DNA of 64,000 nt from Escherichia coli (GTDB lineage: Bacteria; Pseudomonadota; Gammaproteobacteria; Enterobacterales; Enterobacteriaceae): NCBI RefSeq assembly GCF_051903065.1, contig NZ_CP178438.1; one strand, given 5' to 3'. A program made the position numbers. How positions within the stretch are numbered: position 1 is the first letter of the stretch; each line of letters starts with the position of its first letter. This document shows, in pieces, positions 9,001 through 12,000 of this stretch.

Positions 9001-12000
9001 TATCCCATTGCGTTGCAGAACCAGACTGTTGAATATTACTTCGCGCTGGAACGTTGCTGTCGTTACCATCCTGACTATGTCACTGCGTTTTTGGCGATGG
9101 CAGGTCCGTGGTTAATTCCTGATGATGCGAAGTTGCATCGCAAACTGTTGCGCTGGTACAGCTCGGTGCAAACAGGTATGGCGGAACTCATTCCTGTTGC
9201 CCAACAGTGGCAAACGGAAGAACCAGAAAGCGAAGATGCCCGGTATTACCAGTGTGCACAACGTTTGTACTGCGGCGAGGGGGAAAGCCTGCTTGCCGAT
9301 CTCTGCGCGTACTGGGGAAGTTACCCATCTACACAAGCCGATAATTTGTTGTTGCAGTGGAGCGCACAACATTGCCCGGATTATTTCGCGTTATTAGTGA
9401 TGGTTATCGAAGCGCGGAGCATGGTAGATGCGCAAGGTAAACCGTTGAAATATGTTCCTGGTGAGAGCGCCCGGACGCGTCTGTTATGGGCGGAAATTTT
9501 ACATAGCGGAAAACTATCGCCGTTAGGTCAATCGTTTATTGAGTCGCTATTCTTCAAACGCAAAGCATGGGCGTGGTGGAAATCGAGAGTCGGTAGCGAG
9601 ACAGAAGAAGATTCACCGTTACTGGATTTGTATCGGGTAGCGGAACAGGTAGTACTTGAAGCGTTTCCGAAACAAGAGATGCTGGCCCGTCTTAATACAA
9701 GGCTGGAAGGCGGAGATGCTCATCCATTAGAGGCCATTATCACCCGGATGCTGTTGACGAAAGTAAAACTCGAGCCGGAGGATGAAGATGTCGATGAGCC
9801 AACACCTGAAAACCATGAAGAAAAAAATGATGAGGATGAAAAACCACAGAGCATTACCAGCATTATCAAAATCAGCTTAACGGTGCTGGTGATAGGTTAT
9901 GCTCTCGGCAAAATCGCGATGTTGTTTAGTTGACGATGTGTTTTTTGCGCCGATGCCGGATGCAGCATTTACGCCGCATCCGGCAGCCGTGATTATGGGA
10001 TCTCAATGGCTAAATAAACGCTCGCCCGCCGCCTGACCTCATCGACGCGGGCCATATCGTTTGACTGCAGCGCCGCATCAAAATCGGTGATCACCCGGCC
10101 AATCTCTTCTCGCTCGTCACCCAGCGCCCGCGCCCACAACTCTTCCAGTTTGGCCTTAAAGGTGCGGTTGATGAGCATATCGCGCGGATAAATTTTCAAT
10201 GCGGATAACCGCGTCCGACTCTCTTCAATCTGCTGCGCGCTCAATGTTACCGGGCTGTGGTTAATCACTCTGGACTTAACGCTGCCGTCTTCCAGAAGCA
10301 CGTCAACTTCAAGCAAACCGTTGATATCATAACTAAAGCGAATATCAATCGACTGATAAGCCCCGGTTCTCTTCAACGGCACATCGAAGGATTCCACCAG
10401 AATGTTGTTTTTAACTTTGTGGTTTTCTCCCTGATAGACGTTAACCGTAATAGAATCCTGTTCCGGGTGCATGGTTGAATAAGTTTCTACACGCGACACG
10501 GGCACAGTGGTGTTTCGTTCAATAATCGGCGAGAAAATGCCGGAAACGCCCTGGCGGTTAACCTCAACGCCCAACGAGTAAGGGCAAATATCAGTGAGGA
10601 TCACTTCTTCAATATCTTCACTGCGTAAGCGGCAGGCTGCCTGGATTGCTGCGCCCAGCGCGACAATGGTGCTCGGATCGTAACTTTGATACGGTAATTT
10701 GCCAAACAGACGCACGGCGATTCGCTGCACCAGCGGCATTTGTGACGCGCCGCCAACCAGCACCAGACTGTCGATTTGACTCGGCTTCAGACGCGCATCG
10801 CGCAACGCCTGTTCAATCGGCACTCGCAAGCGATTGAGCAGCGGCAACCACAAATCTTCCAGTTCGTTCTCGTAAAATTCGCATTCCCGCGTTTCATCCT
10901 GGTACTGCCAGCGAATGTGCATTGGCGATTGATTGCTACATTTTGCCGCTTCCACACAGGCATACAAGGCTGCCAGTTCACTCTCGTTAAGCGTGGTCCT
11001 GGCGACATCCGCGCGTTTTAAAACCTCATCGACCAGCATATGGGTAAAATCTTCGCCACCGAGGAAGTTGTCGCCAGCGGAGGCGTGAACTTCAATCACC
11101 GGCGTGGCGTACTCAAGCACCGTAACGTCAAACGTGCCGCCACCGAGATCAAACACCAGCGAACGGGTATTTTGTTGGGTATGCAGGCCATACGCCATCG
11201 CAGCTGCTGTGGGTTCATTAATTAAGCGTACCGCATTTAAACCGGCTAACTCCGCTGCTAAACGGGTATGCTTGCGTTGTTCATCGCTGAAATAAGCCGG
11301 AACAGAGATCACCACATCTTTAATCGGACGTTGCAGAAATTCTTCGGCATCTTCTTTTAATGAGCGTAATACCAAAGAGGACAGTTCTGGCGCGTTAAAT
11401 GTGTCGCTGCCTAACTGCCAGTTGGTATTACTGCCCATTGCACGTTTAAATAACGCTGCCGTTTTATCCGGATGCGAAGTACGCCGTGATACAGCCGGTT
11501 TTCCGACTAAAATATGATTATTTTCATCCATGCTAATTATGGATGGTGTTAAATATTTACCGAACTTATTTGGAATTAATTGCGCGGCACCGTCTTTCCA
11601 GACGGCAATTAAACTATTGGTAGTACCGAGATCGATACCAATGGCGAGTTCTGCATTATCCATTGCATTTATATCTTGAAAAAAAAAAGAGATAAACAGA
11701 TTAAGACCACCCAGGTAACGCGTGGTGATCTTAATCAATGACGTGTGTTAAGCGTAAAATTTCAGACGATCAGCCAGTAAATCAACAAAGCCCTGACGAT
11801 CAACATCGACCATTACAGTGGCATTCGGTTTATTGCCAGTCAGATAATAATAATCAACAACCGTCATCCCCTGGGTATATTTCCCCTGTGTTTCCACGCC
11901 AACCCAGCGCTCAACAGTGGTAAACAACTCGGGTTTCAACAGCCAGGCGATGGTGCATGGGTCATGCAGCGGTGCGCCGACAAAGCCCCATTTTTCGTCT

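What the first reader, a model, noticed from the sequence alone, without database searches (positions are those of the whole stretch)
11664..11747. Terminator-like hairpin and T10 tract 15 nt upstream of the hscC start
On the minus strand the rihA stop is followed by an imperfect 13-bp stem and a T10 run, and the hscC ATG follows only 15 nt later with no recognisable Shine-Dalgarno sequence. hscC expression therefore seems to need either terminator read-through from rihA or a promoter embedded in the rihA 3' end, and translation initiation looks weak. This suggests tight, conditional control of the Hsp70.
Basis: seen in the sequence. Interest (0 to 1): 0.4.

Follow-up and report, generated by a model that had tools for sequence, protein, structure and literature searches.

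The report
Leaky rihA transcript-end hairpin before hscC
The hairpin between the E. coli genes rihA and hscC is the conserved, leaky end-point of rihA transcripts that hscC transcription has to read through, while the T10 run beside it is a rare strain-specific variant; this is ordinary operon plumbing already visible in published genome-wide maps.

Summary
On the minus strand, the rihA stop (11750-11748) is followed by a 13-bp hairpin (11736-11699, -17.9 kcal/mol, z -5.5), a T10 run (11688-11679), 15 nt, then the hscC ATG (11663). hscC has almost no Shine-Dalgarno pairing (-0.7 kcal/mol, rank 33 of 34 neighbouring genes).

Hairpin and T10 are not one terminator. They lie 10 nt apart, and T10 is a rare allele: 18 of about 4,413 E. 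coli genomes, against T5CT3 in about 3,700. The hairpin arms are conserved across Escherichia species (2 of 26 columns vary; loop 10 of 12).

Published K-12 data place RNA 3' ends 3 and 6 nt after the hairpin. They give an intrinsic-terminator score below threshold (1.99) and mark a bicyclomycin-sensitive (Rho) termination region reaching into hscC codon 5. They also show a rihA-hscC read-through transcript from the rihA promoter. EDL933 Cappable-seq maps the only hscC-associated start site 176 nt upstream, inside rihA, with none in the spacer.

The terminator role of T10 does not hold, and "tight conditional control" is unshown. Ordinary, low interest.

The parts
11748..12683 (-). rihA coding sequence (pyrimidine ribonucleoside hydrolase). 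Stop TAA at 11750-11748, ATG at 12683.
   Evidence: Read from the sequence. RefSeq annotation of matching E. coli records.
12709..12709 (-). rihA transcription start site, 26 nt upstream of the rihA ATG, mapped by homology. It is the source of both the rihA-only and the rihA-hscC transcripts.
   Evidence: K-12 SMRT-Cappable-seq TSS 684438. EDL933 Cappable-seq TSS 765575. Window and K-12 sequences are identical here.
11840..11852 (-). rihA-internal start site (A11840, mapped by homology) with a -10-like TATTAT at 11852-11847. The TATTAT comes from the Asp-Tyr-Tyr-Tyr codons GAT TAT TAT TAT. I found no good -35 by eye.
   Evidence: EDL933 Cappable-seq TSS 764706, assigned to hscC in all condition columns, lies 176 nt upstream of the hscC ATG. 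Sequence is conserved in E. coli; the third Tyr codon is TAC in E. whittamii and E. albertii.
11737..11747 (-). Spacer between the rihA stop and the hairpin. Homology with E. coli strains lacking the hscC islet ends within its first few bases.
   Evidence: 7 of 11 columns vary among Escherichia. Islet-less strains diverge here.
11699..11736 (-). Hairpin. Left arm 11736-11724, loop and bulge 11723-11712, right arm 11711-11699. This is the rihA transcript 3'-end structure.
   Evidence: -17.9 kcal/mol, z -5.5. Arms vary in 2 of 26 columns, the loop in 10 of 12. One place per genome at the median, at most two; single copy in the window. No Rfam family matches.
11693..11696 (-). Positions homologous to the mapped K-12 RNA 3' ends: Term-seq 683425 maps to 11696 and SMRT-Cappable-seq TTS 683422 maps to 11693.
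   Evidence: Adams et al. 2021 supplementary files 1 and 3. Yan et al. 2018 Supplementary Data 1.
11689..11698 (-). Post-stem spacer UGUUUAUCUC, an interrupted U-rich stretch that is not conserved.
   Evidence: 4 of 10 columns vary. Variants are UGGUUAU, UGUAUAU and UGGCUAC.
11679..11688 (-). T10 run, a rare allele of the common TTTTTCTTT (T5CT3).
   Evidence: Exact window allele in 18 of 4413 genomes. K-12 allele in about 3707 of 4414. A T9 intermediate exists. Other Escherichia species carry T5CT3-like tracts.
11664..11678 (-). 15 nt CAAGAUAUAAAUGCA before the start codon: an A/U-rich translation initiation region without a Shine-Dalgarno sequence, strongly conserved.
   Evidence: 1 of 15 columns varies. 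Anti-SD duplex -0.7 kcal/mol, rank 33 of 34.
9993..11663 (-). hscC coding sequence (Hsp70 family, 556 aa), ATG at 11663-11661.
   Evidence: ORF list, sequence, RefSeq annotation of matching records.
11649..11649 (-). Position homologous to K-12 683379, the coordinate with the most significant bicyclomycin (Rho) effect in this region. It falls in hscC codon 5.
   Evidence: Adams et al. 2021 supplementary file 2: Rho score 6.5, p = 1.9e-15.

Best explanation
The hairpin is the 3'-end-forming and 3'-end-protecting structure of the rihA mRNA, and it acts as a leaky stop.

Most transcripts started at the rihA promoter end at the hairpin or within about 50 nt after it. This happens because Rho terminates in the untranslated spacer and the poorly translated first codons of hscC. 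The resulting ends are then trimmed back to the stem, and a weak hairpin-plus-UGUUUAU intrinsic component may contribute.

The minority of polymerases that pass make a rihA-hscC co-transcript. Together with transcripts from a weak start site inside the rihA 3' end, this is the source of hscC mRNA.

hscC is then translated from an A/U-rich start region without a Shine-Dalgarno sequence. That region probably initiates weakly, leaves the nascent RNA exposed to Rho, and so keeps expression low.

The T10 run is not a working part of this. It is a recent C-to-T change plus a one-base slippage in a pyrimidine tract.

What is shown (published K-12 and EDL933 data, and the sequence comparison here):
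- the 3' ends
- the bicyclomycin sensitivity
- the co-transcript
- the internal start site
- conservation of the stem
- rarity of T10
- absence of a Shine-Dalgarno sequence

What is inferred:
- trimming back to the stem
- the link between weak translation and Rho access
- that the window's T10 strain behaves like K-12
For: - Term-seq in K-12 places a 3' end at 683425, 3 nt after the stem and 32 nt before the hscC ATG. Its Rho score is 3.185, it is flagged as a significant Rho termination region, and its intrinsic-terminator score is 1.99 against a cut-off of 3.0. Coverage upstream/downstream is 91/40 without bicyclomycin and 255/357 with it.
- The most significant Rho position in the region is 683379, in hscC codon 5 (score 6.5, p = 1.9e-15).
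- SMRT-Cappable-seq reports TSS 684438 to TTS 683422. Of 124 reads, 60 end at the TTS, 33 end within 50 bp downstream, and 9 read through with a median of 1012 nt. The operon variants listed are b0651 and b0651|b0650, with no b0650-only operon.
- EDL933 Cappable-seq gives one hscC-associated TSS, at -176 inside rihA, and none at 764500-764699.
- The stem is strong and non-random. Its arms are conserved across Escherichia while the loop and flanks are free to vary: 2 of 26 against 25 of 43 variable columns, Fisher p = 3e-5.
- A hairpin follows rihA in all three locus types. Islet-less strains have a REP-like palindrome, and the alternative islet has a canonical terminator whose left arm is homologous to this one.
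- The Shine-Dalgarno sequence is absent.
- T10 is rare.
Against: - All transcript data come from K-12 and EDL933, which carry T5CT3, not from a T10 strain.
- The region is U-rich rather than C-rich. C is at most 23% and the C/G ratio is about 1.2-1.4, so it is not a textbook rut site.
- Bicyclomycin also raises upstream transcription and can unmask other promoters, so the Rho score is indirect evidence.
- Sharp 3' ends 3-6 nt after a strong stem followed by UGUUUAU also fit a weak intrinsic terminator.
- No compensatory base changes exist to prove the structure itself is selected, because the stem simply does not vary.
- The internal TSS has low read scores (about 2-14) and may be incidental.
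Confidence: 0.6

Rival explanations
1. The hairpin with its downstream U-rich sequence is a weak but genuine Rho-independent terminator of rihA. Read-through is simple leakage, and Rho acts only on what escapes.
For: - RNA 3' ends lie 3 nt (Term-seq) and 6 nt (SMRT-Cappable-seq) after a -17.9 kcal/mol stem, within UGUUUAU.
- 60 of 124 full-length reads end exactly at the TTS.
- The homologous hairpin in the alternative-islet strain L002 is a canonical terminator, AAAAUCACCAC...GUGGUGAUUUUUU.
Against: - The intrinsic-terminator score is 1.99, below 3.0.
- The consensus scan finds no terminator.
- The loop is 12 nt, or 7 nt if the two inner pairs form.
- The proximal U-tract is interrupted and not conserved: UGGUUAU in other E. 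coli and in E. whittamii and E. albertii, UGGCUAC in Escherichia sp. MOD1.
- The coverage drop across the site disappears with bicyclomycin.
Confidence: 0.3
2. Hairpin plus T10 form one intrinsic terminator unit directly gating hscC, which is the literal reading of the finding's title.
For: Both elements are present in the window between rihA and hscC.
Against: - T10 starts 10 nt after the stem, and no structure abuts it.
- T10 occurs in only 18 of about 4,413 genomes. The common allele is T5CT3, including in other Escherichia species.
- The mapped 3' ends lie upstream of the tract.
Confidence: 0.04
3. hscC has its own promoter in the spacer, for example the sigma-70 and sigma-32 promoters predicted in silico or the TTTTCA-16-GATAAT match, and does not need upstream transcription.
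For: - A review cites sigma-70 and sigma-32 promoters that were proposed in silico only.
- RegulonDB-derived TSS distances of 89 and 201 nt are quoted in the EDL933 study's comparison table.
- One consensus match lies at 11682-11655.
Against: - The match overlaps the ATG GAT AAT codons, so its transcript would lack the start codon.
- Promoter-like hits in the region are at chance level: 4 found against 2.0 +/- 1.2 expected.
- No TSS is recorded at 764500-764699 in EDL933.
- There is no hscC-only operon in SMRT-Cappable-seq.
- Both RegulonDB positions (-89, -201) lie upstream of the spacer, inside rihA, so their transcripts would still cross the hairpin.
Confidence: 0.07
4. The internal rihA start site and the hairpin delimit a stable RNA of about 145 nt from the rihA 3' end, with a regulatory function of its own.
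For: - The internal TSS is seen in all EDL933 condition columns.
- There is a defined 3' end at the hairpin in K-12.
- The stem is strongly conserved.
- The predicted fold of the 145-nt RNA is -37.4 kcal/mol.
Against: - There is no Hfq-type terminator, that is, no U-tail after the stem.
- The -10 element is a by-product of Tyr codons and is lost in E. albertii and E. whittamii.
- The Term-seq count is near the low end of minus-strand entries in the part of the table I read.
- I found no paper describing such an RNA.
- No Rfam family matches.
Confidence: 0.06

Closest known systems
Rho-dependent termination regions with hairpin-defined processed 3' ends (Dar & Sorek 2018 as cited by Adams et al. 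2021; premature Rho termination upstream of ORFs such as sugE, mdtJI and cfa in Adams et al. 2021, PMC7815308)
   Same: A 3' end lies just after a stable stem upstream of an ORF. Read-through rises with bicyclomycin (Rho score 3.2-6.5). The intrinsic-terminator score is low. The downstream start region is untranslated or poorly translated.
   Different: Here the upstream RNA is mainly the 3' end of another gene's mRNA (rihA), not a dedicated 5' leader. The sequence is U-rich rather than C-rich. No reporter or rho-mutant test has been done for this locus.
Leaky intergenic terminators that create operon variants (SMRT-Cappable-seq, Yan et al. 2018, PMC6131387)
   Same: One TSS gives a short (rihA) and a long (rihA-hscC) transcript through partial read-through of a TTS. 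This site is in their table as a 'novelTTS', and the pair is listed as a 'novel' extended operon.
   Different: Nothing differs in kind. This locus is simply one entry in that catalogue.
Canonical intrinsic (Rho-independent) terminator
   Same: A strong stem-loop directly after a stop codon, with RNA 3' ends a few nucleotides after the stem and U-rich sequence downstream.
   Different: The lower stem is A/U-rich and the loop is long. The proximal U-tract is interrupted and not conserved. T10 sits 10 nt away. The score is below threshold, and the stop is bicyclomycin-sensitive.
Shine-Dalgarno-independent, A/U-rich translation initiation regions (ribosomal protein S1-dependent initiation; my own knowledge, not tested here)
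   Same: There is no anti-SD pairing. The 20 nt upstream are 80% A+U, predicted local structure is weak, and the sequence is conserved.
   Different: Translation efficiency of hscC was not measured here.

Membership tests
Intrinsic (Rho-independent) terminator | G+C-rich stem of about 5-14 bp with a short (3-8 nt) loop | tested here: inconclusive
   The stem is 13 bp at -17.9 kcal/mol, but it has only 5 G-C pairs against 7 A-U and 1 G.U. The loop is 12 nt, or 7 nt if two extra pairs form after a bulge. The consensus scan rejected it.
Intrinsic (Rho-independent) terminator | U-tract immediately (0-2 nt) after the stem | tested here: not met
   T10 begins 10 nt after the stem. The proximal sequence is UGUUUAUC, interrupted and variable among Escherichia.
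Intrinsic (Rho-independent) terminator | Termination independent of Rho, with a quantitative terminator score above threshold | tested here: not met
   Published K-12 values: intrinsic score 1.99 (cut-off 3.0), Rho score 3.185, and a significant Rho termination region. These were read from the paper's table, not measured by me.
Rho-dependent terminator / attenuator | Read-through increases when Rho is inhibited | tested here: met
   Adams et al. 2021: the downstream/upstream coverage ratio is 0.44 without bicyclomycin and 1.40 with it at 683425. The regional peak is at 683379, with score 6.5 and p = 1.9e-15. These are K-12 data, not from the T10 strain.
Rho-dependent terminator / attenuator | C-rich, G-poor, unstructured rut region in untranslated RNA | tested here: inconclusive
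   In 60-nt windows across the spacer, C is 15-23%, G 13-18% and U 42-47%, giving a C/G ratio of 0.9-1.4. That is pyrimidine-rich but not C-rich. The RNA is untranslated after the rihA stop.
Sigma-70 promoter dedicated to hscC inside the spacer | -35/-10 match placed so that the transcript includes the start codon, plus a mapped TSS | tested here: not met
   The only match, at 11682-11655, overlaps the start codon. Hits are at chance level. No TSS is recorded in the spacer in EDL933 Cappable-seq or in the SMRT-Cappable-seq operon tables.
Shine-Dalgarno-led translation start | Complementarity to the 16S rRNA 3' end 5-10 nt upstream of the start codon | tested here: not met
   The best duplex with ACCUCCUUA is -0.7 kcal/mol, rank 33 of 34 genes. 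rihA scores -7.7 and the median is about -5.9.
Leaderless mRNA | Transcription start at the A of the start codon | tested here: not met
   No TSS is recorded at or near 764530 in EDL933. The TATAAA 4 nt upstream of the ATG is too close to act as a -10 element for a start at that A (read by eye).
Repeated extragenic palindromes (REP/BIME and similar) | Many copies per genome of a shared palindromic consensus | tested here: not met
   There is one place per genome at the median and at most two, a single copy in the window, and no Rfam match. Islet-less strains do carry a REP-like GCCGGATG...CATCCGGC palindrome at this position.
3' UTR-derived small RNA with its own internal promoter | Internal TSS, shared terminator with a U-tail, a stable short RNA, and targets | tested here: inconclusive
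   An internal TSS is present in EDL933 and a 3' end is present in K-12. There is no U-tail, and I found no evidence of a discrete RNA or of any targets.

The most novel reading that the evidence does not exclude
The conserved hairpin, the pyrimidine tract and the conserved start region without a Shine-Dalgarno sequence together form a translation-coupled Rho attenuator. hscC transcription would be completed only when ribosomes manage to initiate at its weak start, or when Rho activity drops. The Hsp70 HscC, reported to bind sigma-70, would then be switched on by stress that alters translation or Rho. The T9 and T10 length variants would tune this set-point.
Probability: 0.15. Interest if true: 0.4.

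Novelty: already known. Interest (0 to 1): 0.15.

Why it matters
It matters little beyond annotation.

- **Transcription unit.** hscC should be treated as the distal gene of a leaky rihA-hscC unit, with a minor start site inside rihA, and not as a gene with its own promoter.
- **The in-silico promoters.** The sigma-70 and sigma-32 promoters quoted in reviews lack support in the TSS maps I could read.
- **Over-reading T10.**
- **If the attenuation idea were true.** It would give a simple route by which a horizontally acquired Hsp70, whose over-expression is reported to inhibit growth and sigma-70-dependent transcription (as summarised in PMC3861889), is kept nearly silent.

Tried and rejected
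- **Stop-codon read-through fusion.** In the window the rihA TAA and the hscC ATG share a reading frame, with no other stop in the 84-nt spacer. The common allele has an 83-nt spacer, which breaks the frame, and the spacer shows indels and high variability. Rejected as chance.
- **Mobile-element end or attachment site.** The spacer lies at the edge of a variable 8-kb islet, but I found no terminal inverted or direct repeats.
- **Known RNA family.** Rfam at E-values up to 10 gave only noise.
- **Leaderless hscC mRNA or a promoter in the last 15 nt.** No TSS is recorded there, and TATAAA sits too close to the ATG.
- **Textbook rut site.** The composition is U-rich, not C-rich.
- **Abundant small RNA ending at the hairpin.** The Term-seq count (91,024) looked high against sroC (42,928). 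However, minus-strand counts in the part of that table I read are much larger than plus-strand ones (lowest seen about 24,000), so the value is modest.
- **Searches that gave nothing.**
  - Thomason 2015 is not held.
  - The Cappable-seq 2016 and ROSE supplements hold nothing at these coordinates.
  - No paper links hscC with H-NS, bicyclomycin or RIL-seq.
- **Covariation test of the stem.** This was impossible because the arms are nearly invariant. The two changes seen each break a pair rather than compensate for one.
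Full report
**What is in the sequence**

The window is an E. coli chromosome segment, not K-12. On the minus strand it carries gltIJKL-rihA-hscC, with djlC convergent to hscC.

- rihA ends with TAA at 11750-11748.
- hscC starts with ATG at 11663-11661 (MDNAELAIGIDLGTTNS). The finding's interval is therefore exactly the 84-nt spacer.
- Within the spacer, GAUUAAGAUCACC (11736-11724) pairs with GGUGGUCUUAAUC (11711-11699). This is 13 bp with one U.G pair.
- The fold energy is -17.9 kcal/mol against -7.1 +/- 2.0 for shuffles, z = -5.5.
- After the stem come UGUUUAUCUC (11698-11689), T10 (11688-11679) and CAAGAUAUAAAUGCA (11678-11664).

The descriptive part of the finding is correct. 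The absence of a Shine-Dalgarno sequence is also confirmed. The best anti-SD duplex is -0.7 kcal/mol, 33rd of 34 genes in the homologous 40-kb region, and the 20 nt upstream are 80% A+U.

**Hairpin and T10 are not one terminator**

- T10 begins 10 nt after the stem, and the consensus scan reports no terminator-like site.
- T10 is the only such run in the window, but 22% of shuffles also contain one.
- T10 is a rare allele. The exact 95-nt window allele occurs in 18 of 4,413 complete E. coli genomes that have the region. The K-12 allele, TTTTTCTTT, falls in the >=99% identity band (effectively exact) in about 3,707 of 4,414.
- Seven sampled E. coli strains and four other Escherichia species all carry T5CT3-like tracts.
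- A T9 intermediate exists. The likely history is a C-to-T change followed by a one-base slippage.

**The hairpin looks selected**

I aligned E. coli, two cryptic Escherichia lineages, E. whittamii and E. albertii.

| Segment | Variable columns |
|---|---|
| Stem arms | 2 of 26 |
| Loop | 10 of 12 |
| Spacer between stop and stem | 7 of 11 |
| Post-stem spacer | 4 of 10 |
| 15 nt before the ATG | 1 of 15 |
| Third codon positions of the flanking genes | 42-44% |

Arms against the other spacer columns give Fisher p = 3e-5. The stem and the hscC start region are therefore under constraint. The U-rich sequence right after the stem is not: it reads UGGUUAU, UGUAUAU or UGGCUAC in other lineages. 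There is no covariation, because the arms hardly change and the two changes seen each break a pair.

The hairpin is single-copy and matches no Rfam family.

**Locus context**

The spacer sits at the edge of a variable islet of about 8 kb (window 3771-11747: ybeQ, ybeR, djlB, ybeT, ybeU, djlC, hscC).

- About 1,000 of 5,414 E. coli genomes lose homology a few bases after the rihA stop.
- In some of these, rihA faces ybeL across a 44-nt REP-like palindrome.
- In others a different three-gene islet is present. Its rihA-proximal hairpin shares the left arm with this one and is a textbook terminator, AAAAUCACCAC...GUGGUGAUUUUUU.
- A hairpin directly after rihA is thus common to all three forms, which points to a role for the rihA transcript end.
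- Close HscC relatives were found only in Escherichia. The next best are 44% identical proteins in Lachnospiraceae and Eubacterium genomes. That search is pattern-based, so absence elsewhere is not proven.

**Published transcript maps**

*K-12 Term-seq (Adams et al. 2021, PMC7815308).* A 3' end lies at 683425, 3 nt after the stem and 32 nt before the hscC ATG.
- Its Rho score is 3.185, it is flagged as a significant Rho termination region, and its intrinsic-terminator score is 1.99, below the 3.0 cut-off.
- Coverage upstream/downstream is 91/40 untreated and 255/357 with bicyclomycin.
- The most significant Rho position nearby is 683379, in hscC codon 5 (score 6.5, p = 1.9e-15).

*K-12 SMRT-Cappable-seq (Yan et al. 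2018, PMC6131387).* A 'novelTTS' is listed at 683422 for transcripts from TSS 684438, which lies 26 nt upstream of rihA.
- Of 124 reads, 60 end at the TTS, 33 end within 50 bp downstream, and 9 pass through with a median of 1012 nt.
- Two operon variants are listed from that TSS, b0651 and b0651|b0650. No b0650-only operon appears in the stored text.
- I did not read the header of the sheet holding this row, so I do not know the growth condition. It is not the M9 sheet.

*EDL933 Cappable-seq (PMC10469882).* The only hscC-associated TSS is 764706, present in every condition column.
- It lies 176 nt upstream of the ATG, which is 90 nt before the rihA stop.
- No gene-associated TSS is recorded at 764500-764699.
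- This position maps to A11840. It is preceded by TATTAT (11852-11847), made by the codons GAT TAT TAT TAT.
- I found no good -35 by eye, and the -10 is lost in E. whittamii and E. albertii.

A review states that the sigma-70 and sigma-32 promoters of hscC were proposed only in silico.

**Most likely mechanism**

The hairpin is the end structure of the rihA mRNA and a leaky stop. Rho terminates in the untranslated spacer and the first codons of hscC, and the ends are then trimmed back to the stem. The authors of the Term-seq study describe this trimming as the general behaviour of Rho-terminated RNAs. A weak intrinsic component is possible.

Roughly 10-40% of polymerases get past, depending on the measure: 9 of 102 long reads, or a coverage ratio of 0.44. 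Those give the rihA-hscC co-transcript. A weak start site inside rihA adds transcripts that must also cross the hairpin.

hscC is then translated from a conserved A/U-rich start region without a Shine-Dalgarno sequence. I infer, but cannot show, that weak initiation at this start exposes the nascent RNA to Rho and helps keep hscC low. The region is U-rich rather than C-rich, so the sequence alone does not make a strong case for a rut site. The Rho claim rests on the published bicyclomycin data from K-12.

**Verdict**

- Its central inference is supported by published maps: hscC needs read-through from rihA or a promoter embedded in the rihA 3' end, and it has a weak ribosome site.
- The implied terminator role of T10 is not supported.
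- 'Tight conditional control' remains speculation.
- The site is already catalogued, although never discussed individually, in genome-wide datasets. It is an ordinary example of a leaky intergenic stop that creates an operon variant.
- Interest is low.

Noticed in passing
window 3771-11747: The block ybeQ-ybeR-djlB-ybeT-ybeU-djlC-hscC is a variable islet bounded exactly by the ybeL and rihA stop codons. About 1,000 of 5,414 complete E. coli genomes lack it. They carry either a 44-nt REP-like palindrome or a different 3-gene islet (DUF6985 and two hypotheticals) that shares only 16 nt and about 26 nt of flank with this one.
   Followed up: partly
window 9993-11663; loci L011-L050: HscC proteins at 96% identity or more were found only in Escherichia species. 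The next best hits are about 44% identical proteins in Lachnospiraceae and Eubacterium gut or rumen genomes, which suggests horizontal acquisition. The search is pattern-based, so absence from other enterobacteria is not proven.
   Followed up: no
window 11840-11852 (minus strand): A transcription start site inside rihA, homologous to EDL933 764706, is driven by a TATTAT that is simply three tyrosine codons. It is also conserved in E. coli strains that lack hscC, so it is probably incidental to hscC.
   Followed up: partly
window 5624-6043 and 8421-8840: A diverged internal duplication (73-77% identity, 2,797-nt spacing) corresponds to the paralogous ybeR-djlB and ybeU-djlC modules.
   Followed up: no
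window 11664-11750: With T10 the spacer is 84 nt, so the rihA TAA and the hscC ATG lie in one reading frame with no other stop. With the common 83-nt spacer they do not. I judged this to be chance.
   Followed up: yes
window 11625-11666 (minus strand): The minimum-energy fold pairs CAAUGG, which contains the hscC AUG, with CCAUUG from codons 7-9. This is a 6-bp stem that could further weaken initiation. The 3' half varies in some strains (GCTATT, GCCATA).
   Followed up: no
locus L014 (Rheinheimera sp. A13L, 737-nt contig): A 737-nt contig in a Rheinheimera draft assembly encodes a protein segment 98% identical to E. coli HscC (residues 34-278). It is probably contamination of that assembly.
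   Followed up: no
window about 3786-3842: A convergent ybeL/ybeQ terminator, GGGCCGAAUGAAAUUCCCCGGCCC followed by UUGUUUUUAU. K-12 Term-seq places a 3' end there at 675562. This is a canonical terminator, in contrast to the rihA-hscC hairpin.
   Followed up: no
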